From NCBI GenBank assembly GCA_030526355.1, contig JAUNDC010000009.1, positions 1,226-65,225 on the forward strand: DNA of 64,000 nucleotides, in the 5' to 3' direction. How positions within the stretch are numbered: position 1 is the first letter of the stretch; each line of letters begins with the position of its first letter. Position numbers and translations under genes: made by a program. The DNA is from Bacillota bacterium. Its GTDB lineage: Bacteria; Bacillota; Clostridia; Peptostreptococcales; Anaerovoracaceae. The notes beneath the pieces were generated by a model that saw only the letters and a list, made by a program, of their open reading frames with translations, was not told where the DNA came from and did no database searches. This document shows positions 2,461 through 60,049 of this stretch, in pieces.

Positions 2461-2649
2461 AGCCGATGATTCAGTTACGACATATGACGATTATATCACA
2501 CCTTCACAGAATGCACCTCTTCTGATGTTTATATTATAACCGGATAGCCTTGAAACATCCTGGTTTCAAAATATCATCGGCAAATTGGTAATTGGGAAAC
2601 AGAAATGCCACCATCCCAAAAAAGCCTGACACGAAAATATCAACATTAT

Positions 2650-3651: not shown

Positions 3652-3831
3652 GACTTGTCTTTATTATAACGAACCGAAAGGTTATTCACTTGATTTCACT
3701 TGCACACATATTATACTTCCTTATTCTATGGAATTGCCACCCTTAATAGATTGCCACCCTCAACTGTTTGCACATTGGCTCTTCCGACAGACCCAATTAT
3801 GGTGTATTATGTTATAGAAGCTATAACAAGG

Positions 3832-5583
3832 ATGGATAGAGCAATGAATTACAATTACAGATTACTTTCACAGGAACAGGTATTCGGGGAAAAGAGAATA
3901 GATTTAATCAGTGCAATCGGGACAGAATGCAGCGTATCGGATTTTGCAATCATTTCAGGAGCGGATGTCAGCGAAAACGGAACCGGCAGATGGTTCCTTT
4001 CCTCAGCTTCAGAGTACGGAGATGTCTGCACCGTCGATCAGAGCGGCAATCAGCGAATGGCATACGCAACAGCTCACGGCAATGTACGCCCGACAATTGA
4101 ATGCCCGGATATTTCCCAGCTGCCATGCAGAACAGTTAAAGACATATCCGGTTTCGAAGAAGCCGAATTAGGCGAATACCCCCAGAATGCAGCAGACAAA
4201 GCACTTTCGAGAACACTGGAACAGGAATATGCCAAAGGCAGACTTATAAAAACCGGCAAAAAATATAATGCACAGCACGAAGAATTCCAGCACGACGGAA
4301 GCAAATACATCAGAGTGCCTTTTACATTGGAAAATGCACACTATCTATCAGACGGACGTAACTGCAGTCAAGGGGATGTCGTATGGATTGAAGTATCACC
4401 TGTCAGATGGCTGCATGATGCAAAGGCAGGACTCCTTGTCAGCAGAACGATTCTCGCATCAGGTGTGCTCTTTACAAGCGAAAACTATTATGACGGAAAT
4501 TTCGAAAAAACAGCTATATATACTTATATGAACACAACCCTTGCACAAGACCTTATTCCAAGCACCCTTCACGAAATGACTTCTGAGGAAAAGGCGGCAT
4601 ATGAAGAGGATATGAAAAAAGCTGCAAGGAGAAGGAACCCTTATGGGCTGTCTTTTGGTGAGGTCAGTGAAGAGGATATTATAAGAGGAGCTATCGAAAG
4701 TGGTGTGGCCGTATTTCTGCACGGGCCTTCGTCAGAAGGAAAAAGCGCCAGAGTAAAGCAGATAGACCCGACATGTGAAATCATTTATCTGCGCAATGCC
4801 ACACCGGACAGTCTGAACGGCAGAAGTGTGTACAACCAGTCTACCGGAGAGATGATCGATATACCACCAACATGGTTTAAGAAGGTAAAGGCAAAGTGCG
4901 AGCAGGAACCTGACAGACTGCATGTGGTTTTCTTTGACGAAATCAACAACGCACTGCCGAGCATTCAGGGCATGGCCTTCAATATCGTGCTGGACAGAGA
5001 GGTTAACGGCATCTGGAAACTCCCTGACAACGCTAGAGTTGTCGCTGCTGGAAATGACATGCAGGATTCCTTGGCAGCTCATCAGCTGGCGGCACCGTTT
5101 TTTAACAGATTTGCTCATGTATATATCAATACAACAACAGAAAAATGGCTGAAATGGGCACGCGAGAACGATATACACCCAGCAATCTACGCATATATCG
5201 CATACAAAAGAGGCGAAACGCTTCGCAGTCCGTATGATGGGCAAAAGCCGAATGCCGACCCAAGAAAATGGGAAATGGCTTCAAAAATGCTCTATACAAC
5301 AGGACGTCCGGAAATGCTGCGTTCACTGATCGGCGAGGATATCACCGATGAATTCGTTCAGTTCTGCAATCAGCCTGTCATCACACTGGAGGATGTGCTT
5401 AACGGAAACTACTGTGATGAAGAATTAGAGAATCTTAATACCTCTGAGAGATATGCTACCACTGTAGGCTTGACACAGGCATCAGCTTCGGAGCTGGAGA
5501 CTGTGCGAAGCTTCGTGTCCAAGCTGGGTGAGGAATTCAGAGCAGTTTTTGATTCGTACGCACTGTCGGAGGAAAAGAAATGA
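3832..5583 (+). CDS. AAA+ ATPase (MoxR / AAA_5-like) with a ~290-aa N-terminal extension
   Basis: Walker A GPSSEGKS, Walker B VVFFDEIN and VVAAGN sensor region. The N-terminus has two beta-rich modules (GRWFLSSASEYGD..GNVRPTIE; VVWIEVSPVRWLHDAKAGLLVSRTIL). The ORF opens at 3700, but ATG 3832 or 3844 is the more plausible start. Confidence 0.75.
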   Translation: MDRAMNYNYRLLSQEQVFGEKRIDLISAIGTECSVSDFAIISGADVSENGTGRWFLSSASEYGDVCTVDQSGNQRMAYATAHGNVRPTIECPDISQLPCRTVKDISGFEEAELGEYPQNAADKALSRTLEQEYAKGRLIKTGKKYNAQHEEFQHDGSKYIRVPFTLENAHYLSDGRNCSQGDVVWIEVSPVRWLHDAKAGLLVSRTILASGVLFTSENYYDGNFEKTAIYTYMNTTLAQDLIPSTLHEMTSEEKAAYEEDMKKAARRRNPYGLSFGEVSEEDIIRGAIESGVAVFLHGPSSEGKSARVKQIDPTCEIIYLRNATPDSLNGRSVYNQSTGEMIDIPPTWFKKVKAKCEQEPDRLHVVFFDEINNALPSIQGMAFNIVLDREVNGIWKLPDNARVVAAGNDMQDSLAAHQLAAPFFNRFAHVYINTTTEKWLKWARENDIHPAIYAYIAYKRGETLRSPYDGQKPNADPRKWEMASKMLYTTGRPEMLRSLIGEDITDEFVQFCNQPVITLEDVLNGNYCDEELENLNTSERYATTVGLTQASASELETVRSFVSKLGEEFRAVFDSYALSEEKK

Positions 5584-6800
5584 TATATGATATCACAGCT
5601 TTAAAACGCAAGGTGATCGCTATATATCCATACTTCGGTAGCATCGCAGCCGGCGTCGAATATCTCGAAACTGAAGATACAGCAACAATAATGAATAACG
5701 GGACTGATATCTTTTATAATCCCCGGTATATGTCAGGCCTCTCTGCCGATGATCAGGTTTTTGTTCTGGCTCACGAGCTGTGTCATATCGCTTTCTCTCA
5801 TGCGTCAAGAGGCGCCGGCAAGGATCCTCAGATATGGCAGATGGCTGCCGATGCGGTAATCAACCAGATGCTCAAGCGTGATGGCCTTGATATCATTTCG
5901 GGCGGCATTAATTACCCTGAAGCTATCGATTATGATGCAGAGCAGTATTATGAAATTCTTCTCAAGGAAAAGCTGGACATAGAGCTGCTGTTCGGGCAGC
6001 TGGAAGGTCAGGAAAACCCTGTGGCTGGCGGAGGAAACGGCCAGCAGACACCGGAAGATGAAAATTCAGGTAACGAAGATGGCGACAATGATTCCGATGA
6101 GGATTCTGAAAATACTTCCGAAGACAACGACGAGGATGATGAAACTCTTCTTGAGCTGCTGCCGGAGCAAGAAGATAATTCTGATGACGATGATTCTGAT
6201 GACGACGAGCGTGCACTGATTGAGGTAAAGGAATCAAAGGCAGGAAATGCCGTCAACCGTGATACCAGAATCGTGGAGGAGATCGGCAGTGCCTCCCCTC
6301 TTATCGACTGGCGTCTTATTCTGCTGGACACAATCAATTACGGTGTGGACTGGTCATATACGAATGCAGTCCTGGAAAACGGTATCGTCAGGCCTGTTCT
6401 GGAGGAAATTCCTGTTCCCGAGACGGAAATCGTTCTGGATACCAGCTGGTCGGTAGATGAAGAACTCCTGAGAAATTTCCTGCGGGAATGCAAGAATATA
6501 TTGTCGTTCTCCAAATTAAAGGCGGGATGTTTCGATACTGTGTTCTATGGATTTCACGATATCAGAACCGAAAAAGATATTGAGGACATGCCTTTTCAGG
6601 GTGGCGGAGGAACGGACTTCAATGTGGCAGCAGAAGCCTTCACCCTTCGTGTCGACAATCGTATCATATTCACGGATGGGCAGGCTCCGATGCCTGACAA
6701 GTATCTGAAGGCAATCTGGGTAGTATATGGCGATGAGACGATAGAGCCTTTCGGAGGCACAGTAATTCATATCAGACCGGAGCAGCTTATGAGAAGCTAA
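5580..6800 (+). CDS. HExxH putative metallopeptidase + VWA-like protein (DUF2201-type partner of the AAA+ ATPase)
   Basis: ATGA overlap with the upstream stop. VLAHELCHIAFSH (HExxH), a ~70-aa D/E/S/N acidic linker, and a C-terminal VLDTSWSVD (MIDAS-like DxSxS). The family name is recalled from memory, not searched. Confidence 0.7.
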   Translation: MIYDITALKRKVIAIYPYFGSIAAGVEYLETEDTATIMNNGTDIFYNPRYMSGLSADDQVFVLAHELCHIAFSHASRGAGKDPQIWQMAADAVINQMLKRDGLDIISGGINYPEAIDYDAEQYYEILLKEKLDIELLFGQLEGQENPVAGGGNGQQTPEDENSGNEDGDNDSDEDSENTSEDNDEDDETLLELLPEQEDNSDDDDSDDDERALIEVKESKAGNAVNRDTRIVEEIGSASPLIDWRLILLDTINYGVDWSYTNAVLENGIVRPVLEEIPVPETEIVLDTSWSVDEELLRNFLRECKNILSFSKLKAGCFDTVFYGFHDIRTEKDIEDMPFQGGGGTDFNVAAEAFTLRVDNRIIFTDGQAPMPDKYLKAIWVVYGDETIEPFGGTVIHIRPEQLMRS

Positions 6801-6898: not shown

Positions 6899-7077
6899 GC
6901 GAGATATTGAATCTATCTGCATGCCTCTCAAGTGCTTTTTACATAAAAATCCACATTTGATTGCTTTGTTTGCTGTTAGCTCCCGATACATTTAAACTAA
7001 TTTGCTGTTGCGGGTGCTGAATGCCGTTCGAAATTCAGCACCCAATAAAATAATGTGTAAATAACAATCAAATTTCT

Positions 7078-7233: not shown

Positions 7234-7865
7234 TTAAACAGTCTGGAATAATACGAGCCTGCCTGATAAAGCGCTGCTGCCGGGTTATGCCCCAGCACGC
7301 GATCCTTTGTTACCAAAGTGGTGCAAAGCGCATCCGAGTATTTATAAAACATGCTGTCATGGCCTACACACAGCCCGACAACAATATTGAGATCGGTCTT
7401 CTCCTCATTGAGGAGCTTTGCCTGCATTATAGGATTGCACATGTTGACTCCCACCTCGCAGCAACGCTCATCGATACCGACAGACGTCTTTGGCTGTGCG
7501 CCGATTTTACATGCCACCCCTACGACTTCAAAGCCCTTATGTCTGAATATCTTTGCTGCTGTACGAGCCTCTGAGATAAGTCCGACGCATGTAGCTATCC
7601 CAAGTTTTTTCGCTCCGATTTTTGATGCGAATTCTGCGATTTCTTCAACCCGTGTCATTTTACAATAATTTTCAGCTTCAACTTCAGCCGCCGCTTTCAT
7701 TACAGTGGAATTTGCCTCATCCTCTATATACAGCTTCACAGCGGTCTCCAGCAGCTCGGGCTTCAGCTTTGCTGTCAGGCAGAAATCCGGATACATCCCG
7801 TTTTTTCCATCGCAGGCTGTCACAGCACAGTCTATGCAGCTTCGTTCAGTTCTGTTGTCGTCCAT
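7230..7865 (-). CDS. Cys-rich metal-binding protein, DUF1847-like
   Basis: N-terminal CIDCAVTACDG..PDFCLT plus later C-rich motifs (ATCVGL, GVACK, CCEVGVNMCNP, GLCVGHD). The family is recalled from memory. The start lies 3 nt after the kinase stop. Confidence 0.55.
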   Translation of the reverse strand: MDDNRTERSCIDCAVTACDGKNGMYPDFCLTAKLKPELLETAVKLYIEDEANSTVMKAAAEVEAENYCKMTRVEEIAEFASKIGAKKLGIATCVGLISEARTAAKIFRHKGFEVVGVACKIGAQPKTSVGIDERCCEVGVNMCNPIMQAKLLNEEKTDLNIVVGLCVGHDSMFYKYSDALCTTLVTKDRVLGHNPAAALYQAGSYYSRLFK

Positions 7866-10136: not shown

Positions 10137-10173
10137 AAAAAAGACCCCACATGCTGAAACACGAGGGTCTTTT
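10137..10173 (-). terminator. Intrinsic terminator (long loop) after the permease gene
   Basis: AAAAGACCC (10139-10147) pairs with GGGTCTTTT (10165-10173) around a 17-nt loop. The minus-strand transcript ends in a U-tract. Confidence 0.6.
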
Positions 10174-19281: not shown

Positions 19282-19590
19282 CTGCACCAGGAGGCATCAG
19301 GATAATGATTTTCGACGTGTTTAACATTTCTGAGCATAGGCACGTCGAAAAACAACATCAGAGCCAAAGAAAATGAATATATTTTCGACGTGACATAGCT
19401 GATTTTACCTCGACACGTCGAAAACAACAGCACAGTTACTGCACCAGGAGGCATCAGGATGATAATTTTCGACGTGTTTAACATTTCTGGGCATAGGCAC
19501 GTCGAAAAACAACATCAGAGCCAAAGAAAACGAATATATTTTCGACGTGACATAGCTGATTTTACCTCAACACGTCGAAAAAACAATTGT
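19282..19590. repeat. Hairpin array, family A (4 units; a 157-bp segment duplicated in tandem)
   Basis: TTTTCGACGTG at 19309, 19382, 19466 and 19539, each paired with CACGTCGAAAA exactly 32 nt downstream (21-nt loops). Unit spacing is 73, 84 and 73 bp. Segments 19282-19438 and 19439-19590 are near-identical. Confidence 0.9.
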
Positions 19591-19688: not shown

Positions 19689-19731
19689 TTAAGTTGTGAA
19701 TTTAACAAAACTAAAATATGGAGAGGTTATC

Positions 19732-19878
19732 ATGGAAAGAATCAAGACACTCGATACTCGTAACTTATGTGAAAGTTCTAAAAATGGTGGCTGCGGCGAA
19801 TGCCAGACTTCATGTCAGTCAGCTTGCAAAACAAGCTGCGGTGTAGCAAACCAGCCATGTGAAAAGACAGAAGAATAA
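19732..19878 (+). CDS. scfA: SCIFF (six-cysteines-in-forty-five) ranthipeptide precursor
   Basis: MERIKTLDTRNL..GGCGECQTSCQSACKTSCGVANQPCE, the hallmark GGCGECQTSCQSACKTSC core. 48 aa with an SD 5 nt upstream. Confidence 0.9.
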   Translation: MERIKTLDTRNLCESSKNGGCGECQTSCQSACKTSCGVANQPCEKTEE

Positions 19879-19995: not shown

Positions 19996-21372
19996 ATGGT
20001 TCATCAGTATAAATTAAACGGATACAACATCGTGCTGGACACATGCTCCGGCTCTATTCATGTAGTGGATGAAGTCGCTTACGACATTATCGAAATGTTC
20101 AACAGCAAGTCTGCAGACGAAATCGTATCGGAAATGCTCACAAAATACGCCAATCACGGCGATGTGACCGAAGAGGAGCTCAGGCTCTGCATAGAAGATG
20201 TTCAATCTCTCATCGATGCCGGAAAGCTCTACTCAGAGGATACCTTCGCAGACGCTGCAGGCGTTTTCAAGGAACGCTCAGGAAACATCATCAAAGCACT
20301 CTGTCTCCACGTTTCACACACCTGCAATCTCAACTGTTCCTACTGCTTTGCAAGTCAGGGAAAATACCACGGGGATCAGGCCCTCATGAGCCTTGAGGTC
20401 GGAAAACGCGCGCTAGACTTTCTCATCGAGAATTCAGGCAGCCGCAGGAATCTGGAGGTGGATTTCTTCGGCGGCGAACCGCTTATGAACTGGGATGTCG
20501 TAAAGGAGCTTGTGGCATATGCCAGAGAGCAGGAAAAGGCACACGATAAGAATTTCAGATTTACGCTGACAACAAACGGAGTTCTGATCGATGATGATGT
20601 TATCGATTTTGCCAACCGTGAAATGAGCAACGTCGTCCTCAGCCTGGACGGAAGAAAGGAAATCCATGACCTTACCCGCGTGGACTTCGCCGGAAACGGC
20701 AGCTATGACAAAGTAGTTCCTAAATTCAAAGAGATAGTTGAGGCCCGCGGTGGCAAGAATTATTACATGCGCGGCACTTTTACACACGCCAACCCTGATT
20801 TCACAAAAGATGTCTTCCATATGGCAGAGCTTGGTTTCACAGAGCTCAGCATGGAACCTGTCGTATGTGCACCTGACGACCCATCGGCACTGACTCCTGA
20901 AGATATTGAAATAGTCAAGGATCAGTATGAAATACTGGCTAAGGAGATGATAAAACGCCGCAAAGAAGGCAACCCGTTCACTTTCTATCACTATATGATC
21001 GACCTGACAAACGGACCATGCATCTACAAGAGAATTTCCGGATGTGGCTCCGGCACCGAGTACATGGCAGTAACTCCGTGGGGCGATCTGTATCCGTGTC
21101 ATCAGTTTGTGGGCGAGGAAAAGTACAAGCTGGGTGATGTGTGGAACGGTGTGACGAACGACGATATTCGTGAAGAATTCCGCAGCTGCAATGCGTACTC
21201 AAGGCCTGACTGTAAGGACTGCTGGGCGAAGCTTTACTGCTCCGGCGGCTGCGCGGCCAACGCTTATCATGCCAGCGGCTCCATTAAAGGCATTTATGAA
21301 CCAGGCTGTGAGCTTTTCAGAAAGCGTATGGAATGTGCTATTATGATTAAAGCGGCTGAGGCTGAAATGTAA
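19996..21372 (+). CDS. scfB: SCIFF radical-SAM/SPASM thioether maturase
   Basis: CNLNCSYCF radical-SAM cluster motif and a C-terminal Cys-rich SPASM region (CGSG..C..CxxCWAKLYCSGGC). Immediately downstream of scfA. Confidence 0.9.
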   Translation: MVHQYKLNGYNIVLDTCSGSIHVVDEVAYDIIEMFNSKSADEIVSEMLTKYANHGDVTEEELRLCIEDVQSLIDAGKLYSEDTFADAAGVFKERSGNIIKALCLHVSHTCNLNCSYCFASQGKYHGDQALMSLEVGKRALDFLIENSGSRRNLEVDFFGGEPLMNWDVVKELVAYAREQEKAHDKNFRFTLTTNGVLIDDDVIDFANREMSNVVLSLDGRKEIHDLTRVDFAGNGSYDKVVPKFKEIVEARGGKNYYMRGTFTHANPDFTKDVFHMAELGFTELSMEPVVCAPDDPSALTPEDIEIVKDQYEILAKEMIKRRKEGNPFTFYHYMIDLTNGPCIYKRISGCGSGTEYMAVTPWGDLYPCHQFVGEEKYKLGDVWNGVTNDDIREEFRSCNAYSRPDCKDCWAKLYCSGGCAANAYHASGSIKGIYEPGCELFRKRMECAIMIKAAEAEM

Positions 21373-22184: not shown

Positions 22185-23498
22185 ATGGATCTTTTAATTG
22201 CTTTCATTTTGTTCATGGCGGTGATGCTTGCCGCTCTTATAAAAGGTTTTACTATGGTTATTGCTCTGCTTGTGGGGCTGATTGCCTTCACAGCTGTCGG
22301 CCTTAAACGCGGCTTCGGCTTCAGGGAGCTTTGCCGGATGGGCGCCGGCGGAGCCCGTGACTCTCTTATTGTCATTGAGGTCATGTTTGTCATCGGTTTC
22401 CTTACCGCAATATGGCGTGTATCGGGCACTATCACTATCTTCGTTTATTACGGCATCAGAATCATTACGCCGCCGTTATTCCTAATTATTGCGTTTCTGC
22501 TTTCATGTCTGCTCAGCTATGCCCTTGGCACATCTTTTGGAGTTGCGGGGACAGTAGGGGTTATTTTCATGACTCTGGCAAGGAGCGGCGGTGTCAATCC
22601 TGTGCTTACAGCGGGTGTGCTGATGTCGGGAATTTATTTCGGTGACCGCTGTTCTCCGGTTTCCTCCAGCGCCAACATGGTAGCCGCTGTAACCAATACA
22701 AAAATATTTGATAATGTTAAAATGATGATGCGCACGGGCCTCCTGCCTCTGATAATATGTACTGCTGTTTATATTGTGGTATCTGTGCTGAATCCAATCA
22801 CTCATGTGGACAGCGAGCTCCTCGCTGCCTTTGAAAGTGAGTTCAAGCTTTCTCTGTGGGCTTTCGTGCCTGCTGTTCTGATGCTTCTGCTGCCTCTTCT
22901 CAAGGTAAGCGTTCTGATTTCCATGGCTGCAAGTATCGTCAGCGGCATCCTGGTAGCATGGCTTGTCCAGGGAGTTTCTCTGCTGGAAGTGTTGCGTATC
23001 TGCATTCTGGGATATGAGTCCGAGGGCGGAGGTCTGGGAACACTGCTCAATGGCGGCGGGCTTGTTTCAATGCTGGAAATCGTTGTTATTCTGCTGATTT
23101 CATGTACATATTCGGGAATTTTCAATGGAACCGGGATGCTGGAAACTCTTCAGACCAGAATAAGCCAAGGCTGCAGTAAAATCGGGCGATATTCGATGAT
23201 GCTTCTGCTGAGCTTCGGGTCAGCGGCTGTTTTCTGCAATCAGACTATTGCCACTCTGATGTGTTCTGATCTGCTCTCAAAGCCATATGAAGATGCCGAT
23301 GCTTCCAGACAGGAGCTTGCCATCGATATGGAAAATTCAGTTATCCTGATCGCATGCTTCATTCCGTGGAGCATAGGCTGTTCTGTACCGCTGTCATTCT
23401 TCGGAATGGATTATCATGCACTTCCGTATGCAGTCTACATGTATACGCTGCCGATCTGCTACTGGCTCAGCAAGAAGCGTTGGTATGGGGAGCGATAA
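22185..23498 (+). CDS. NhaC-family Na+/H+ antiporter-like membrane protein
   Basis: Polytopic ~12-TM protein that resembles the NhaC family overall. No catalytic motif can be checked by eye. Confidence 0.6.
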   Translation: MDLLIAFILFMAVMLAALIKGFTMVIALLVGLIAFTAVGLKRGFGFRELCRMGAGGARDSLIVIEVMFVIGFLTAIWRVSGTITIFVYYGIRIITPPLFLIIAFLLSCLLSYALGTSFGVAGTVGVIFMTLARSGGVNPVLTAGVLMSGIYFGDRCSPVSSSANMVAAVTNTKIFDNVKMMMRTGLLPLIICTAVYIVVSVLNPITHVDSELLAAFESEFKLSLWAFVPAVLMLLLPLLKVSVLISMAASIVSGILVAWLVQGVSLLEVLRICILGYESEGGGLGTLLNGGGLVSMLEIVVILLISCTYSGIFNGTGMLETLQTRISQGCSKIGRYSMMLLLSFGSAAVFCNQTIATLMCSDLLSKPYEDADASRQELAIDMENSVILIACFIPWSIGCSVPLSFFGMDYHALPYAVYMYTLPICYWLSKKRWYGER

Positions 23499-23555
23499 CC
23501 CCTCATCCTTGTTGTTCCGATGAAAGTATCTGTTTCAATATGCTCAGACGCGCCA

Positions 23556-24187
23556 TTTCATCGGTAGATTGATGTAAATTAAGCGGTTACCGATGATATA
23601 GCAAACGTAGATAGATCACGAGCAGAAATATCATCGGTAAATAGGCATTTCAGAAGTGGTTACCGATGAAACCATTGTCATGGAGAACGTGATGGATTGC
23701 TGTTTCATCGGTAAATTGGTGCTTAAAAGGAGTTCCCCGATGAAAACAACTCCTGCCTAAGGTTCTGAAGCATTTTTTCATCGACAGATTTGTGTTTGGA
23801 GATCAGTTACCGATGACAATAGCCTTTCCGAGAAGCTTCGCTAACAAAATGTCATCGGAGAATTGGTGCACGAAGGGAGATTGCCGATGAAATCGGCGGC
23901 TCAGCAAACTTCAAAAGCAAAATTTCATCGGCAGATTGGTGCATGAAGAGCAGTTGCCGATGAAACCCACAGATTGCTGAATCTCAAACGCGCCGTTTCA
24001 TCGGAGAATTTATATTAGAGGCAGAGTTGCCGATGAAGTCAGCTGTTCTGCAATATTCAAAAAAATGAATTTCATCGGTAGATCTGTATTCGAGGAGCGG
24101 TTACCGATGACAACAGCCTTTCCGAGAAGCTTCGCTAACAAAATGTCATCGGTAGATTGATGTTTAGAGGCAGTTTACCGATGAAAA
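23556..24187 (+). repeat. Hairpin array, family B (9 units on a 73/74-bp lattice)
   Basis: TCATCGG at 23558, 23631, 23705, 23778 (TCATCGA), 23852, 23925, 23998, 24072 and 24146. CCGATGA lies exactly 32 nt after each. Loops share only the partial consensus ATTGGTG..AGRGGCAG. Spacers of 30-31 nt are unique except 23815-23850 ~ 24109-24144. No ORF of 60 aa or more. Confidence 0.95.
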
Positions 24188-24216
24188 TAACTCCAACTTA
24201 AAGCTCCGAAACAACA

Positions 24217-24306
24217 CCCTTCAATTCCGCCAACTCAGCTAATTCCACCAAATTAACCAATCCCTCCAAATCAATCAATCCCGCCAACTCAGCCGATTCC
24301 GCCAAA
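24217..24306 (-). repeat. 18-bp tandem repeat x5 seeded on the last codons and stop of the transporter CDS
   Basis: Minus-strand units: TTTGGCGGAATCGGCTGA / GTTGGCGGGATTGATTGA / TTTGGAGGGATTGGTTAA / TTTGGTGGAATTAGCTGA / GTTGGCGGAATTGAAGGG. The first unit is the real C-terminus FGGIG*. Confidence 0.9.
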
Positions 24307-25626
24307 AAACGCCCCAGCCACAAGCGCAATAAGCGCCAGCGGAACAAATACAAACCTTCCAAGCGTTACAAACCACGAACCTATCGGCTTGTCAGCGCCT
24401 TCATTAACAGCCTTTTCAGCGTAATCCTTACCTGCAACATAGAAGAACATAATGCCTGCCAGCATTGCACCTAGCGGACACACATAAATCGAAACAGCAT
24501 CCATCCAGCCTGATACAATCGCCTGTATCAGAAGAGCTACAACACAGCCTGCAGCCGCAATCACCAGAACTGCCCGAATCCGCTTCATGTGCAGCTTTTC
24601 CTGAAGTGCTGCAACCGGCACCTCATAAAGATTCATCAGCGAGGTTATTCCCGCCAGCATCACGCACACATAGAATATAATTCCTACCACCGTTCCACCA
24701 GGCATCCCGTTAAACACATTTACAAGATAAATAAACATCAGCCCTGGTCCCGCAGTGTCAAGCGCCGCTCCGCCAACTGCCATCGACGGCACAATAACCA
24801 ATGTCGCCAGCATTGACGCAATAGTATCAAACACAGCGATATTGCGTGCAGACTTGATGAGATTTTCGTTTTTTCCAAGGTATGAACCGTAGATAACAGT
24901 TCCGTTGCCCGCTATGGAAAGCGAGAAAAAAGCCTGACCGAAAGCGAATACCCAAAGCTCCGGTTTAAGCAGCCCTGAAGGTTCGAGTGTAAAGATGTAC
25001 TTGTACCCTTCGTTTGAGCCAGGCAGCGTCATAATGTATATGCCCAGAATCACAAAAAGACAAAAAAGTGCCGGCATCATAATCTTGTTTACTTTTTCGA
25101 TACCTCCGGCAATTCCGAATATCATTATCAGACCCACAGCAGCAACCGCTATGATAAGCCACATGTTATTGCCCCATGCCGATGCCGTCTGTCCGAACAT
25201 TCCTCCAATAACATCCATATCCTGTCCCATGTCGGCAATACCGCCAGTCAGGGCCATGAAGGTGTATTTAAAAATCCAACCCACGACTACTGTGTAGCCT
25301 ATGGCAAGGCAGAGCGCTCCAATTACCGGAACAGCTCCAATCCACTGCCCGAACCTGCTGCCGGTTCTGATTTCAGTACATTTTCCAAAAGCTCCGATAG
25401 GTCCGGATCCCGTCGAACGCCCAAGGGCGATTTCTTCAATGACCCCGGTTGCCCCGATAAGAATAACAAAAATAAAATACGGTATCAGGAAAGTCAGACC
25501 TCCCCATTCAGACACCATATACGGAAATCTCCAGATGTTCCCCATACCCACAGCAGAGCCGACACATGCCAGCGTGAAACCCCAGCGGCTTTTGAAGCCA
25601 TCACGGGCTTGTTCCTGATTTTTCAT
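24289..25626 (-). CDS. Sodium-dependent transporter, NSS/SNF family
   Basis: WGFTLACVGSAVGMGNIWRFPY hallmark and 11-12 TM. The start was set at MKNQEQ (GAGGAG plus 6 nt). Confidence 0.85.
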   Translation of the reverse strand: MKNQEQARDGFKSRWGFTLACVGSAVGMGNIWRFPYMVSEWGGLTFLIPYFIFVILIGATGVIEEIALGRSTGSGPIGAFGKCTEIRTGSRFGQWIGAVPVIGALCLAIGYTVVVGWIFKYTFMALTGGIADMGQDMDVIGGMFGQTASAWGNNMWLIIAVAAVGLIMIFGIAGGIEKVNKIMMPALFCLFVILGIYIMTLPGSNEGYKYIFTLEPSGLLKPELWVFAFGQAFFSLSIAGNGTVIYGSYLGKNENLIKSARNIAVFDTIASMLATLVIVPSMAVGGAALDTAGPGLMFIYLVNVFNGMPGGTVVGIIFYVCVMLAGITSLMNLYEVPVAALQEKLHMKRIRAVLVIAAAGCVVALLIQAIVSGWMDAVSIYVCPLGAMLAGIMFFYVAGKDYAEKAVNEGADKPIGSWFVTLGRFVFVPLALIALVAGAFFGGIG

Positions 25627-25711
25627 AATAATCTCCTCAAATAAATGTGGAATATCGCAGCACCGATATCCTTTCAAATTGCGCTGCCTCCTCAGCAGCG
25701 GCAGTCTTTAT

Positions 25712-27294: not shown

Positions 27295-27337
27295 TTTTCG
27301 ACGTGTCGGGGCAAAATCAGCTGCTACATGTCGAAAA
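27295..27337 (-). repeat. Orphan family-A hairpin (inverted relative to the array copies)
   Basis: TTTTCGACGTG (27295-27305) and CATGTCGAAAA (27327-27337), again with a 32-nt offset. The loop matches the reverse complement of array units 2 and 4 at 16 of 21 positions, and the TATAT flank is shared. Confidence 0.85.
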
Positions 27338-38824: not shown

Positions 38825-38874
38825 AGAAGGAGCCTCACTCAACAACTGACAAGTTATCGGGCGAGGCTCCTTCT
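38825..38874. terminator. Bidirectional terminator with a 26-nt loop
   Basis: AGAAGGAGCCTC (38825-38836) pairs perfectly (12 bp) with GAGGCTCCTTCT (38863-38874). It lies between convergent hydA and the 181-aa gene. Confidence 0.55.
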
Positions 38875-56837: not shown

Positions 56838-56888
56838 AAAAAGAGCTTCAGGTATCAGTTGGTATAACAACCGAGCCTGAAGCTCTTT
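56838..56888 (-). terminator. Intrinsic terminator with a 23-nt loop
   Basis: AAAAAGAGCTTCAGG (56838-56852) pairs with CCTGAAGCTCTTT (56876-56888). The minus-strand U-tract follows. It lies after the DUF3793-like gene. Confidence 0.55.
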
Positions 56889-58145: not shown

Positions 58146-58189
58146 AAAAAAGTCGGCTATGCCTATTCTGTCAAGAGGTAGACTTTTTT
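58146..58189 (+). terminator. Orphan terminator-like long-loop hairpin
   Basis: AAAAAAGTC (58146-58154) pairs with GACTTTTTT (58181-58189) around a 26-nt loop. No convincing gene lies upstream. Confidence 0.35.
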
Positions 58190-58273: not shown

Positions 58274-58651
58274 ATGAAATCAGCAAAAGACAAATCAATC
58301 GAAATAGAACCAACGAAAGATATTTCAACGGAAATAAAATCAGTGAAATCAGATGCGGCGGAGCCTGTAATTAGCATCACCCCCGGCACACCATGCGTGT
58401 ACATGCTTCTGTGTGATAATGGGTCTCTCTATACAGGCTGGACCAATGATTTCAACAAACGCTTCGCCGCTCACATGAATGGGCAGGGTGCTAAATATAC
58501 ACGAAGCCACAAACCAGTTAAACCCGCATATATCGAAATAATGCCGGATAAGTCGGCAGCTGTAAAGCGTGAAGCAGCAATAAAAAAACTTCCTGTCAAC
58601 AAAAAAAGGCAGCTGATAAGTACACCATCAAATATCATCTATTCTACCTGA
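58274..58651 (+). CDS. GIY-YIG nuclease-family protein (YhbQ/UPF0213-like) with a repeat-rich N-terminal extension
   Basis: CVYMLLCDNGSLYTGWTNDFNKRFAAHMNGQGAKYTRSHKPVKPAYIE..REAAIKKL (GIY..YTG..R..H..G..E core). The first ~40 aa (KSIEIEPTKDISTEIKSVKS) come from short DNA repeats. Confidence 0.8.
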   Translation: MKSAKDKSIEIEPTKDISTEIKSVKSDAAEPVISITPGTPCVYMLLCDNGSLYTGWTNDFNKRFAAHMNGQGAKYTRSHKPVKPAYIEIMPDKSAAVKREAAIKKLPVNKKRQLISTPSNIIYST

Positions 58652-58684: not shown

Positions 58685-59213
58685 GTTCAGGTGAATTCCA
58701 ATGGCTCGGTTTCTGATTCCCCGATATCTTTGCAAAATTGAGTTTCTACAATTTGGCGATTTCATCGGTAACTTCTTCCCTATGGAGTCTTTTCTACATA
58801 ACGACCGTCATCGGCAACCACACTCCAAGCACTAGTTTCCCGATGAAATTCTGCTGCTGAAGTTTTCTGGACTTTGAATTTCATCGGTAATCTTCACCAA
58901 CATTGCTTCTCGCCGGTGAAGCCTTCTTATTCCAAACATGCATCCAAACATGCAAGTCTCCAAATATGTTTATGTAATCTATCATTTGGAGACTTTTGGC
59001 TGTTTTCGGTGTGATTTGAACTTGATATTCTCCAAAAAGTCTCCCTAAAAGATATATTTGGAGACTTTATTGCCAATATATGTATAATGCTGGGAAATAG
59101 TCTCCAAATCATGGTTCTGAAGTGTAATATTGGAGACTTGCATCGCAAAATATCCTTCAATATACCTAAAAGTCTCCAACCAATGCCATCACGGCAAAGA
59201 TTTGGAGACTTTT
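58685..59213 (+). repeat. Composite hairpin array: family-B arms switch to family-C arms on one ~73-bp lattice
   Basis: 5' arms start at ~58685 (degenerate), 58760, 58806 and 58879 (TCATCGG type), then 58954, 59027, 59099 and 59171 (AGTCTCCAAAT type, partner ATTTGGAGACT ~30 nt downstream). From 58806 the steps are 73, 75, 73, 72 and 72 bp. Confidence 0.85.
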
Positions 59214-59261
59214 CATTTTAGCGAGCCCGTCTGATTAGTTCGCCGATCTAACAAATTCGGT

Positions 59262-59428
59262 CTGGGCAAATTGCCCGACTGACAGGTTAACAAATTCGGC
59301 CTGCGCAAATTATCGGTCTAACAGGTTAACAGATTCTGTCTGCGTTAATTGTCAATCTGACAGATTGAACCTGCGTAATTGTCCGCCCGACAGTTCCGAC
59401 ATGCGTTAATTACCAGCCTGTGTTAATT
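59262..59428. repeat. Degenerate tandem repeat (CTGCGYWAATT motif x6) running into the 3' end of the next CDS
   Basis: The motif occurs at 59262, 59301, 59340, 59371, 59401 and 59418 (spacing 39, 39, 31, 30 and 17). The last copy contains stop codon 59423-59425 of the minus-strand gene. Confidence 0.7.
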
Positions 59429-60049
59429 TCTTGCCTGCATCAGAAGCAGCTTGTGCACTTCTGCTGATGAGGTTCCGAACTTTTTCACATCCATTCCAAG
59501 TACCTGAGTGGCAGCGGCTGCGTCAACTGCTCCAGTAACAGACTCTTCCGGAGAACCCTCGGATTCAGCCGGACACGACCACTCAACCTTATTGATTTCC
59601 ACAATAAGAGCCAGCATCTGCTGAGCATATATTTCCATGTTATTGTTAAATGTTTCCTGTTCGCTTTTCTTCACCGGATTTTTCATCTCAATAAAAAGCT
59701 TGCAATTTTCACCTGTTCCTGTAATTTTCACTGAGTATTTGCCTGCAAAAGCCTCTAGCTTCATAGCATCAAGCAGCTTGACAACCGAAGCCGTATCATT
59801 GACATCGCTGACCTTTCGATCATAGAGAACCACTGAATTCTGATCCGAGCAGTCCACCAGCACCGGCTCCAGGCTGCTCCGCCAGCTGGAGCCTGAAGCC
59901 ACAGAGTCTCCGGAGTCCACAGATTCTCCAGAGGCTGTAGTGTCTCCGGAGGCTGCAGACGCTTCCGACTGATTATTCACAGGCATTACAGCAAAAGCGA
60001 CTGCCAGAATTATCACCGCAGACAACGCTGCAAAAATCAGCATTTTCAT
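59423..60049 (-). CDS. Membrane-anchored secreted protein, DUF4825-like
   Basis: N-terminal TM/signal anchor (MLIFAALSAVIILAVAFAV), a Ser/Gly/Asp low-complexity linker, and a C-terminal ..VLYDRKVSDVNDTASVVKLLDAM..AQQMLALIVEINKVEW that resembles DUF4825 (from memory). The start is uncertain (60049, 60043 or 60088). Confidence 0.45.
   Translation of the reverse strand: MKMLIFAALSAVIILAVAFAVMPVNNQSEASAASGDTTASGESVDSGDSVASGSSWRSSLEPVLVDCSDQNSVVLYDRKVSDVNDTASVVKLLDAMKLEAFAGKYSVKITGTGENCKLFIEMKNPVKKSEQETFNNNMEIYAQQMLALIVEINKVEWSCPAESEGSPEESVTGAVDAAAATQVLGMDVKKFGTSSAEVHKLLLMQARN

What the first reader, a model, noticed from the sequence alone, without database searches (positions are those of the whole stretch)
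23556..24187. Nine 43-nt long-loop hairpins on a strict 73/74-bp lattice between two convergent transporter genes
**Seen directly**
- The 5' arm core TCATCGG starts at 23558, 23631, 23705, 23778, 23852, 23925, 23998, 24072 and 24146. The steps are 73, 74, 73, 74, 73, 73, 74 and 74 bp.
- In all nine units the partner CCGATGA begins exactly 32 nt after the 5' core, so loop length is fixed.
- Loop sequence drifts, with only a partial consensus ATTGGTG..AGRGGCAG.
- Unit 6 carries a compensatory arm change (GGCA/TGCC instead of GGTA/TACC).
- The 30-31-nt inter-hairpin spacers are mutually unrelated, except that 23815-23850 and 24109-24144 differ by 1 nt.
- The flank before unit 1 resembles the spacer before unit 7, which points to segmental duplication.
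- No ORF of 60 aa or more covers the 630 bp.

**Interpretation**
- A structured repeat plus a constant-length unique spacer is formally the CRISPR layout. Here, though, only arms and geometry are conserved and no cas gene is nearby.
- 73 bp is about 7 helical turns and the 32-nt arm offset about 3 turns, so as duplex DNA all half-sites would face the same side.
- Hypotheses: a REP/BIME-like element array, a processed RNA array, or a phased protein-binding scaffold.
Basis: partly seen in the sequence, partly recalled or inferred. Interest (0 to 1): 0.82.

Follow-up and report, generated by a model that had tools for sequence, protein, structure and literature searches.

The report
Hairpin minisatellite between two transporter genes
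A non-coding 73-74-bp repeat carrying a conserved 10-bp inverted repeat is tandemly amplified to nine copies between two convergent transporter genes of an uncultured Clostridia bacterium; it behaves like the small palindromic "junk" repeats of other bacteria (REP/BIME, REPIN clusters, BOX), not like CRISPR, and ranges from 0 to 9 copies among close relatives.

Summary
The geometry is real. There are nine TCATCGG-N25-CCGATGA hairpins, every step is 73 or 74 bp, and no ORF covers them (11 pattern matches in the window against 0.16 expected). Two details are wrong. Unit 4 reads TCATCGA. The "spacers" are not unrelated: loops (51% identity) and spacers (37%, null 26.5%) are both homologous. The whole 73/74-bp unit is therefore a decayed tandem repeat, not a repeat-plus-unique-spacer layout.

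The same unit occurs twice more in the window: 2.5 copies in reverse orientation at 58740-58922 and one decayed copy at 2571. It also occurs in four related assemblies. The nhaC-SNF locus holds 0, 3, 3, at least 2, or 9 units in relatives.

A second family with different arms (TTTTCGACGTG) has the same 11+21+11+30 geometry at 19309-19581.

Between strains the arm cores change at 1/70 positions, against 87/303 in loops and spacers, with no covariation.

There are no cas, Tas or transposase genes, no Rfam hit and no phage or plasmid match.

Best reading: a new REP/BIME- or REPIN-cluster-like palindromic repeat family forming variable-number arrays. Its function, and the reason for its strict length conservation, remain unknown.

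The parts
22185..23498 (+). nhaC-family Na+/H+ antiporter gene. The array begins 5 nt after its stop codon.
   Evidence: Pfam PF03553, E 1e-31. 100% match to an NCBI MAG 'Bacillota bacterium' protein.
23503..23523 (+). Degenerate unit 0. It is a short TCATC..GATGA hairpin. Its 3' arm CCGATGA at 23517 lies 41 nt before the core of unit 1, the in-array spacing.
   Evidence: The weak profile hit at 23516-23551 covers the 3' arm plus the following linker.
23556..24186 (+). Array of nine 73/74-bp units of family F1. Each unit is a 43-nt hairpin module (TTTCATCGGTA, 21 nt, TACCGATGAAA) plus a 30-31-nt linker. All nine units are in + orientation.
   Evidence: Profile hits at E 3e-17 to 2e-10 on the + strand only.
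23556..23598 (+). Unit 1 hairpin
   Evidence: ssDNA -7.5 kcal/mol
23629..23671 (+). Unit 2 hairpin
   Evidence: -8.5
23703..23745 (+). Unit 3 hairpin
   Evidence: -7.4
23776..23818 (+). Unit 4 hairpin. Its 5' core is decayed to TCATCGA.
   Evidence: -3.7, not better than shuffles
23850..23892 (+). Unit 5 hairpin
   Evidence: -5.4
23923..23965 (+). Unit 6 hairpin, with the longest perfect stem (11 bp)
   Evidence: -13.3
23996..24038 (+). Unit 7 hairpin
   Evidence: -5.3
24070..24112 (+). Unit 8 hairpin. The module 24102-24154 (arm, linker, arm) is nearly identical to 23808-23860.
24144..24186 (+). Unit 9 hairpin. It is the homologue of the last unit in L121 and L149.
24289..25677 (-). Sodium:neurotransmitter symporter (SNF) gene, convergent with nhaC
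   Evidence: Pfam PF00209, E 2e-46
58740..58922 (-). Second F1 locus: 2.5 units at a 73-bp period, in reverse orientation, between the GIY-YIG gene and the DUF4825 gene
   Evidence: Profile hits on the - strand at E 4e-12, 3e-8 and 2e-4. The orthologous copies are present in L147.
2571..2613 (+). Decayed solitary F1 unit (ATATCATCGGCAAATTGGT...; the 3' arm is lost)
   Evidence: Profile hit at E 0.006; sequence
19309..19581 (.). Sister family F2: four hairpins TTTTCGACGTG-N21-CACGTCGAAAA with 30-nt linkers. The steps are 73, 84 and 73 bp. It is a two-unit block duplicated once.
   Evidence: Absent from the same intergenic region of L149-L152.
27295..27337 (.). Solitary F2 hairpin (11+21+11 nt, one arm mismatch)

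Best explanation
**What it is**
The region is a variable-number tandem array of a small dispersed palindromic repeat, here called family F1. The repeat unit is the whole 73/74 bp. It consists of a 43-nt module with 9-11-bp inverted arms (TTTCATCGGTA / TACCGATGAAA) around a 21-nt interior, followed by a 30-31-nt linker.

**Shown**
- Loops and linkers of different units are homologous.
- The same oriented unit lies at two other places in the window and in four related assemblies.
- The nhaC-SNF array holds different subsets and numbers of units (0 to 9) in close relatives.
- Blocks of units, and modules bounded by arms, have been duplicated or exchanged.
- The arm cores are about 20 times better conserved than loops and linkers, as sequence and not by compensatory change.

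**Inferred**
- The array grows and shrinks by unequal recombination or replication slippage. In the one deletion whose junction could be traced (L149 against L145), the junction lies in the homologous linkers.
- The arms persist because they are the recognised or recombining part of the element. By analogy, REP sequences are kept by their RAYT transposase. Alternatively, they are homogenised by gene conversion.
- No terminator lies between the convergent genes and the array, so it is probably transcribed into the 3' ends of both mRNAs. There it would form alternative hairpins, as REP, BIME and BOX elements do.

It is not an adaptive-immunity or guide-RNA array.
For: **Geometry**
- Geometry and chance level.

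**Tandem repeat rather than repeat plus unique spacer**
- Whole-unit homology: (loops 0.509 against 0.293; linkers 0.367 against 0.265 +/- 0.007).

**Dispersed family**
- Profile search finds the second locus in reverse orientation and a decayed solitary copy.
- Copies also occur in L121, L145, L147 and L149.

**Copy number at the orthologous locus**
- L120 and L144 have 0 units; L121 and L149 have 3; L145 has at least 2.
- L121 keeps relatives of U5, U4/8 and U9. L149 keeps relatives of U7, U6 and U9.
- L149 equals L145 minus one unit, with the junction in homologous linkers.

**Arm constraint and module exchange**
- Arm constraint: 1/70 against 87/303 changed positions, p = 3e-8. No covariation.
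- Module exchange or loop hot spots.

**Sister family**
- F2 has identical geometry.

**Negative evidence for the rivals**
- No cas, Nop or transposase gene among 47 ORFs.
- No Rfam match.
- No phage or plasmid similarity. No array in viral contigs.
- No promoter or terminator in the array.

**Independent assembly**
-.

**Known analogues**
- Tandemly repeated REPIN clusters that include their flanks, and several REPIN families per genome (PMC3116915).
- REP stems of 5-13 bp and loops of 2-20 bp (PMC3733652).
- BOX elements with a variable number of tandem boxB modules (PMC3049150).
Against: - No RAYT/IS200-type or other transposase lies in the 64-kb window, and the rest of the genome could not be read.
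- The GTAG or CGTC tag that marks most REP families is absent.
- Only three F1 loci were seen, so high copy number is unproven.
- A purely selfish or neutral repeat does not explain two facts. No loop has gained or lost a base in 19 F1 loops from five assemblies (four strains) at 26-50% substitution. F1 and F2 share exactly 11+21+11+30 nt without detectable homology outside the arms.
- Sequence-level arm conservation would fit a DNA-binding protein equally well.
- Transcription and any effect on the flanking genes are untested.
Confidence: 0.55

Rival explanations
1. Phased protein-binding scaffold on duplex DNA. Each arm would be a half-site for a sequence-specific protein, and all half-sites would lie on one face of the helix. 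The result would be a filament or wrapped complex between the convergent genes.
For: - The arms are conserved as sequence, with no compensatory changes and 1/70 changes between strains.
- Loop and linker lengths are fixed although their sequences drift.
- Spacings of 32 and 41-42 bp sum to 73.5 bp, which is 7 x 10.5 bp.
- The only irregular step, in F2, is 84 bp, which is 8 x 10.5 bp.
Against: - At least two arm families (F1, F2) would need separate proteins. A third family (F3) has irregular spacings of 82, 63 and 69 bp.
- The array is absent from relatives with 95-97% identical NhaC, so it is dispensable.
- Solitary and decayed copies exist.
- No DNA-binding gene is linked to the array.
- Length constancy may be partly inherited from a common 73-bp ancestor unit.
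Confidence: 0.15
2. Transcribed and processed RNA array of the CRISPR, TIGR or toxI kind. Hairpins would be handles for a nuclease, and loops or linkers would act as guides or antitoxin units.
For: - Regular structured units of constant length.
- The RNA folds far better than shuffles (z = -7.5).
- TIGR stem-loop arrays show that arrays with low sequence conservation exist (PMC12045711; 10.64898/2026.09.09.750476).
Against: - Loops and linkers are homologous among units and between strains, not acquired sequences.
- There is no match to phages or plasmids.
- No cas, Nop/Tas or toxN-like gene occurs among 47 ORFs.
- The interior of 21-25 nt cannot hold the two 14-nt box C, spacer, box D intervals of a TIGR unit (10.64898/2026.09.09.750476).
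- No promoter-like site precedes or lies within the array.
- No Rfam family matches.
- The predicted RNA fold is not a row of discrete hairpins but many alternative long-range arm pairings.
Confidence: 0.05
3. Selected cis-acting 3'-UTR element. It would be a stack of hairpins that protects both convergent mRNAs from 3' exonucleases, or insulates convergent transcription. It would have arisen locally rather than as a mobile family.
For: - It starts 5 nt after the nhaC stop codon and lies between convergent genes.
- Neither gene has an intrinsic terminator in the intergenic region.
- REP and BOX elements are reported to act this way (PMC3049150; abstracts listed).
Against: - The same unit occurs at unrelated loci, and once antisense to both neighbouring genes.
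- F2 sits in a divergent promoter region.
- Relatives manage without the array.
- The hairpins lack the U-tract of terminators. They have T before and A after the stem on both strands.
Confidence: 0.15
4. Assembly artefact: short-read mis-assembly of a simpler repeat.
For: - The source is a MAG.
- The 55-nt module 23806-23860 recurs at 24100-24154 with a single difference.
- The Logan assembly breaks there.
Against: - Units 1-4 are reproduced exactly by a second assembler.
- Homologous arrays with the same period are present in four other samples.
- The units differ enough to be assembled with k above about 40.
Confidence: 0.03

Closest known systems
REPIN clusters and BIMEs (REP elements) of Pseudomonas and Enterobacteria
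   Same: - Short extragenic inverted repeats that can fold into a hairpin around a less conserved interior.
- Several families with different arm sequences in one genome.
- Solitary decayed copies alongside ordered tandem arrays in which the flanking sequence is repeated too.
- Preference for intergenic regions between convergent genes (PMC3116915, PMC2817692).
   Different: - No GTAG or CGTC tag.
- The arms are 11 nt and are not themselves palindromes.
- The loop is 21 nt, just beyond the reported REP range of 2-20 nt.
- All units in the array point the same way, whereas REPs in BIMEs alternate.
- No RAYT gene was seen.
- The host is a Clostridia bacterium. No mention of Firmicutes or Clostridia was found in the REP survey PMC3733652.
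Pneumococcal BOX elements (variable number of tandem boxB modules)
   Same: - A Firmicutes host and a non-coding element.
- Modular, with a tandemly repeated internal module of variable number.
- Predicted stem-loops.
- Often co-transcribed with neighbouring genes (PMC3049150).
   Different: - BOX has distinct boxA and boxC ends, which are terminal inverted repeats.
- The F1 array has no distinct end modules.
- The F1 unit carries its own inverted repeat.
MIRU-type minisatellites (VNTR loci) of mycobacteria
   Same: - Tandem units in intergenic regions (unit size of 40-100 bp is from my own knowledge).
- Dispersed over several loci.
- Copy number differs between strains; MIRU-VNTR typing rests on this (PMC3294723).
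   Different: - From my own knowledge, MIRUs are direct repeats without a conserved hairpin, and many overlap short ORFs.
- There is no sequence relation.
CRISPR arrays
   Same: - Regular alternation of a structured element with a roughly 30-nt segment of constant length.
- Duplication and loss of modules by recombination between repeats.
   Different: - Repeat interiors are only about 51% identical.
- The 'spacers' are homologous to each other and are inherited vertically.
- No cas genes and no protospacer matches.
TIGR stem-loop arrays (TIGR-Tas)
   Same: Tandem hairpin units separated by linkers, with little overall sequence conservation (PMC12045711).
   Different: - In TIGR arrays the stems vary, and short box C/D motifs plus two 9-nt spacers lie inside each stem.
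- Here the stems are the conserved part.
- The interior of 21-25 nt is too short for two 14-nt intervals.
- No Nop-domain gene is present.

Membership tests
CRISPR array | Near-identical direct repeats within the array | tested here: not met
   Only the 7-11-nt arms are conserved. Interiors are 51% identical.
CRISPR array | Unique spacers of foreign origin | tested here: not met
   Linkers are mutually homologous (0.367 against 0.265) and shared with relatives. No phage or plasmid hit at E <= 1.
CRISPR array | cas genes nearby | tested here: not met
   None among the 47 ORFs of the 64-kb window. The rest of the genome was not seen.
TIGR-Tas array | [quoted passage not shown] | tested here: not met
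   The interior between the arms is 21-25 nt, less than 2 x 14 nt. A CGA-N9-TG/CG interval starting in the 3' arm fits unit 2 but not units 1 or 3; the other units were not checked (read; rule from 10.64898/2026.09.09.750476).
TIGR-Tas array | Adjacent Nop-domain (Tas) gene | tested here: not met
   No Nop-domain family among the Pfam hits of the 47 ORFs.
REP / BIME (RAYT-associated) | Short extragenic palindromic unit (stem 5-13 bp, loop 2-20 nt) | tested here: inconclusive
   The stem is 9-11 bp. The loop is 19-21 nt with 10-11-bp arms, up to 25 nt with shorter stems, at or just beyond the reported limit (PMC3733652).
REP / BIME (RAYT-associated) | GTAG or CGTC tag at one end | tested here: not met
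   The flanks are (A/G)TTT and AAA(C). GTAG occurs only inside the stem top of units 1, 8 and 9.
REP / BIME (RAYT-associated) | REPs in alternating orientation at regular spacing (BIME) | tested here: not met
   All nine units match the profile on the + strand. Only the arms alternate.
REP / BIME (RAYT-associated) | RAYT (IS200/IS605-type Y1 transposase) gene in the genome | not testable with these tools
   None in the window.
REPIN cluster | Two inverted arms forming a hairpin, tandemly repeated together with flanking sequence | tested here: met
   definition in PMC3116915.
Dispersed minisatellite / VNTR (MIRU-like) | Tandem intergenic units (40-100 bp, from my own knowledge) at several loci, with copy number varying among strains | tested here: met
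   The unit is 73/74 bp. There are three loci in the window. The same locus holds 0, 3, 3, at least 2, or 9 units in relatives.
Intrinsic terminator | GC-rich stem, loop of 3-8 nt, U-tract after the stem | tested here: not met
   No terminator-like site in 23499-24288. Loops are 19-25 nt, and A, not T, follows the stem.
Any Rfam family | Score at or above the gathering threshold | tested here: not met
   No hit in the whole window. Best sub-threshold hit is 17 bits against a 36-bit threshold.

The most novel reading that the evidence does not exclude
F1 and F2 may be substrates of one dedicated, so far unknown machinery in this Clostridia lineage. Candidates are a hairpin-specific recombinase or HUH enzyme, or an RNA- or DNA-binding oligomer acting as a ruler. 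That machinery would recognise 11-bp inverted arms exactly 21 nt apart and set a 30-nt linker. This would explain three observations:
- Two families without detectable homology outside the arms share the 11+21+11+30 geometry.
- No indel has occurred in 19 F1 and 5 F2 loops.
- Sequence differences pile up in modules bounded by the arms.
Probability: 0.12. Interest if true: 0.7.

Novelty: new variant of a known kind. Interest (0 to 1): 0.4.

Why it matters
REP, BIME and REPIN-type repeats have been worked out mainly in Proteobacteria. No mention of Firmicutes or Clostridia was found in the REP survey consulted. This family gives a Clostridia example with an unusual long-loop, fixed-length architecture, and with at least two arm families sharing one geometry. 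If a cognate enzyme exists it would be a new repeat-and-mobiliser pair.

In practice, the array is a strain-typing marker (0 to 9 units). It is also a place where short-read assemblies of these genomes break. And it is a warning that arm-only conservation plus constant period can mimic a CRISPR or TIGR layout.

Tried and rejected
- **Genome-contig scan** with TCATCGG-N23-27-CCGATGA-N30-40-TCATCGG. One hit was an ordinary CRISPR whose repeat contains CCGATGA (L059).
- **Metagenome-contig scan** with a two-unit pattern. The one hit, L119, is a different tandem hairpin (CCGATGAGTC..GACTCATCGG) with a conserved interior, next to HipA/HigBA genes.
- **Viral-contig scans**.
  - There was no F1 array and no F2 match.
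  - Single F1-like hairpins had random loop lengths, so they are chance matches.
  - The F3 stem recurs beside a tRNA gene in a few viral contigs, which was judged unrelated.
- **CRISPR idea:** rejected, as set out under the membership tests.
- **TIGR idea:** read up and rejected on unit size, motif pattern and absence of Tas.
- **Hammerhead and box C/D resemblance of CCGAUGA:** only sub-threshold snoRNA hits.
- **Shine-Dalgarno-like GGAG plus the AUG of the 3' arm.** ORFs read by eye from those AUGs on the sequence (no translation was run) are 2-25 codons long with no shared peptide. GGAG or GAGG is present in only 8 of 15 loops. Rejected as coding or leader peptides.
- **Loop inversion between strains:** the reverse complement of the loop matches at only 8/25 positions by manual comparison. 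Rejected.
- **Resemblance of the arms to parS, Spo0A, CodY, PurR and RAT sites:** recalled from memory only and none convincing. Not pursued.
- **TRF** misses the array because the units are less than 70% alike.
Full report
**1. The observation**

The region 23556-24186 holds nine copies of TCATCGG-N25-CCGATGA. Their start-to-start steps are 73, 74, 73, 74, 73, 73, 74 and 74 bp. With up to two mismatches the pattern occurs 11 times in the window, against 0.16 expected from dinucleotide shuffles.

Eight units match exactly. A half unit precedes the array: CCGATGA at 23517, 41 nt before unit 1. The array therefore starts 5 nt after the nhaC stop codon.

No ORF of 60 aa or more covers the array. 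It lies between convergent nhaC (22185-23498) and SNF-family (24289-25677) genes.

A Logan assembly of run SRR24915835 (L001) reproduces units 1-4 base for base. It ends inside the linker that occurs twice in the array. The array is therefore not an artefact, although the count of nine is not independently confirmed.

**2. The unit is the whole 73/74 bp**

Fifteen full units were aligned: nine from the array, two from the second locus, three from L121 and one from L145.
- Loops are on average 50.9% identical (shuffled null 29.3%).
- The supposed unique spacers are 36.7% identical (null 26.5 +/- 0.7%).

The repeat finder had already grouped several linkers (families D1, D5, D7). This is therefore a decayed tandem repeat whose conservation falls in the order arms, then loop, then linker. 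It is not a repeat-plus-unique-spacer layout. TRF misses it because the units are less than 70% alike.

**3. A dispersed, oriented family**

A profile HMM of the units finds all nine array units on the + strand (E from 3e-17 to 2e-10). It finds 2.5 further units on the minus strand at 58740-58922 (E 4e-12, 3e-8, 2e-4), again 73 bp apart. It also finds a decayed solitary copy at about 2571-2613 (E 0.006). Loop and linker homology fix the orientation of the second locus.

**4. Relatives**

The source is an NCBI MAG named only 'Bacillota bacterium'. The nearest named relatives of its proteins are Anaerovoracaceae, Eubacterium sp. AB3007 and Porcipelethomonas, so it is an uncultured Clostridia bacterium.

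The orthologous nhaC-SNF intergenic region holds:

| Assembly | NhaC identity | F1 units |
|---|---|---|
| L120 | 97% | 0 |
| L144 | 95% | 0 |
| L121 | 92% | 3 |
| L149 | not computed | 3 |
| L145 | 95% | at least 2 (contig ends in the array) |

- Periods in relatives are again 73 or 74 bp and loops are again 25 nt between the cores.
- L121 keeps relatives of U5, U4/8 and U9. L149 keeps relatives of U7, U6 and U9.
- L149 equals L145 minus one unit, with the junction in homologous linkers.
- L147 comes from the same sample as array-free L120. It still carries the second-locus units. The family is therefore present in that sample although the main array is missing.
- More distant relatives (L122 and L123, NhaC 76-79%) show no F1 in the stretches fetched.

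**5. What is constrained**

Across five orthologous unit pairs between strains:

| Part of unit | Changed positions |
|---|---|
| 7-nt arm cores | 1 of 70 |
| Loops | 32 of 125 |
| Linkers | 55 of 178 |

Fisher's exact test for arms against the rest gives p = 3e-8.

Within the family there is no covariation. There is one double change in 168 pair cells, against 2.9 in shuffles. The two variable stem positions are unpaired in 7/14 and 9/14 units. The arms are therefore kept as sequence, not merely as a helix.

Lengths are kept as well. No F1 loop seen (19 units from five assemblies of four strains) has an indel despite 26-50% substitution. Linkers vary by one base only.

**6. Modules bounded by arms**

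Two comparisons show differences piled into the loops.
- Window strain (L146) against L147: 14 of 50 loop positions differ, against 7 of 271 elsewhere (p = 5e-8).
- The block U4-linker-U5 against U8-linker-U9: 20 of 50 loop positions differ, against 2 of 67 elsewhere (p = 3e-7).

Three quarters of these loop differences are transitions: 15 of 20, and 10 of 14 counted by hand. So they are related sequences, not replacements by foreign DNA.

Two explanations remain open. Segments delimited by arms may be exchanged by gene conversion or template switching. Or the loops may be mutation hot spots. I cannot tell which. In other orthologous pairs, loops and linkers diverge alike.

**7. Sister families**

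At 19309-19581 there are four hairpins TTTTCGACGTG-N21-CACGTCGAAAA with 30-nt linkers. The steps are 73, 84 and 73 bp, and the whole is a two-unit block duplicated once. A solitary copy with the same 11+21+11 layout lies at 27295-27337.

The F1 profile does not detect this family, F2, even at E <= 10. Yet the geometry is identical.

The F2 array is absent from the same intergenic region in L149-L152.

A third family (AAGTCTCCAAA / TTTGGAGACTT, 58954-59213) has looser spacing. It recurs as a single hairpin in L123.

**8. What it is not**

- *No linked machinery.* None of the 47 larger ORFs of the window encodes a Cas protein, a Nop/Tas protein or a transposase. All are ordinary chromosomal genes.
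- *No known RNA family.* Rfam gives nothing at gathering score, and only chance-level hits below it.
- *No foreign matches.* The 790-bp intergenic region has no similarity to phage or plasmid records at E <= 1. No array occurs in IMG/VR.
- *No transcription signals.* No promoter-like or terminator-like site lies in the array.
- *Not TIGR.* TIGR stem-loop units need two 14-nt box C, spacer, box D intervals inside a variable stem, plus a Tas gene (PMC12045711; 10.64898/2026.09.09.750476). Here the stem is the conserved part and the interior is 21-25 nt.
- *Not a canonical REP.* REP families are marked by a terminal GTAG or CGTC tag (PMC3733652), which is absent here.

**9. Folding**

As RNA the array folds much better than shuffles (-225 against -182 +/- 6 kcal/mol, z = -7.5). 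But the optimum is a tangle of alternative long-range arm pairings, because every arm is complementary to every other arm of the opposite orientation.

Single modules as ssDNA give -3.7 to -13.3 kcal/mol. Units 4 and 5 are not clearly better than shuffles.

**10. Interpretation**

The best-supported reading is a lineage-specific small palindromic repeat family that forms variable-number tandem arrays. The closest analogues are these:
- Tandemly repeated REPIN clusters and BIMEs. These include their flanks in the repeat, occur as several families per genome, and leave decayed singlets (PMC3116915, PMC2817692).
- The tandem boxB module of pneumococcal BOX elements (PMC3049150).
- MIRU-type VNTR loci.

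Growth and shrinkage by unequal recombination or slippage is inferred from the block duplications and the unit-length deletion. Why the arms and the lengths are held so strictly is not explained. A cognate protein that recognises the hairpin or its duplex form is the obvious candidate, whether a mobilising enzyme or a binding protein.

The helical arithmetic is compatible with duplex binding on one face: 32 + 41.5 = 73.5 = 7 x 10.5 bp, and 84 = 8 x 10.5 bp. It does not prove such binding.

Because no terminator separates the array from either gene, it is probably part of both 3' UTRs. That too is inference.

**11. Verdict**

The finding is real and the lattice is genuine. But it is a diverged minisatellite of a REP-like family rather than a CRISPR-like or guide-RNA array. 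I rate it moderately interesting (0.4). The shared fixed geometry of two arm families, and the arm-bounded pattern of variation, are unusual and deserve a genome-wide census and a search for a partner gene.

Noticed in passing
window 58954-59213; L123 9447-9490: A third hairpin family: AAGTCTCCAAA(T) / (A)TTTGGAGACTT arms, four to five hairpins with loops of 15-22 nt and irregular spacing. The same 12-bp arms around a different 20-nt loop occur once in a relative with only 79% identical NhaC. A-tract before and T-tract after the stem, like a bidirectional terminator but with a long loop.
   Followed up: partly
window 24222-24306: An 18-nt tandem repeat (about 4.7 copies, TRF score 86). It consists of decayed copies of the stop codon plus the last five codons of the SNF gene (TCAGCCGATTCCGCCAAA), stacked just downstream of the real gene end. 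L121 has two copies and L120 one.
   Followed up: partly
window 59240-59440 (= L146 9424-9620): Degenerate repeats of about 39 nt (..AACAAATTCGGYCTGSGCAAATT..) downstream of the DUF4825 gene. L147 lacks a 39-nt unit here. The whole 771-bp intergenic region is therefore a patchwork of three repeat families.
   Followed up: partly
window 58146-58189; L121 about 7655-7696; L149 (nhaC-SNF intergenic region): A conserved 44-nt hairpin AAAAAAGTC..ATTCTGTCAAGAGGTA.GACTTTTTT whose 26-nt loop is conserved, unlike the F1 loops. It lies upstream of the GIY-YIG gene in the window. In L121 and L149 it lies inside the nhaC-SNF intergenic region. No Rfam match.
   Followed up: no
window 56840-56888, 38825-38874, 10139-10173, 7012-7043: Further solitary hairpins downstream of genes, with perfect stems of 9-13 bp. 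Loops are unusually long (17-26 nt) in three of them and 10 nt in the fourth (7012-7043). Long-loop hairpins seem to be a general habit of this genome. Shuffles give 3-10 such hairpins per window, against 44 observed.
   Followed up: no
window 19723-19878 and 19996-21372: A SCIFF-type Cys-rich peptide gene (six cysteines in forty-five residues) followed by its radical SAM/SPASM maturase. The F2 hairpin array sits in the promoter region just upstream.
   Followed up: no
window 3700-5583: A 627-aa ORF with no Pfam match at E <= 0.001. It overlaps by 4 nt the start of a DUF2201 metallopeptidase/VWA-like gene (5580-6800).
   Followed up: no
L119 2980-3260 (JGI contig Ga0247719_1008756): An unrelated tandem hairpin repeat: CCGATGAGTC, a conserved 30 nt, then GACTCATCGG. 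There are four to five copies downstream of HipA-like and HigB/HigA-like genes. It shares the CCGATGA/TCATCGG stem core with F1, probably by chance.
   Followed up: no
L059 2588-7924 (Terriglobia MAG): An ordinary CRISPR array of at least 74 repeats (GTTGAAACCTGTGCCCCGATGAAGAGGGGACTGAAAG), period 69-77 bp. It was picked up only because its repeat contains CCGATGA.
   Followed up: yes
window 58274-58651: A stand-alone GIY-YIG nuclease-domain protein (125 aa) lies about 90 bp from the second F1 locus. The gene keeps this position in L146 and L147. No link to the repeats was shown.
   Followed up: no
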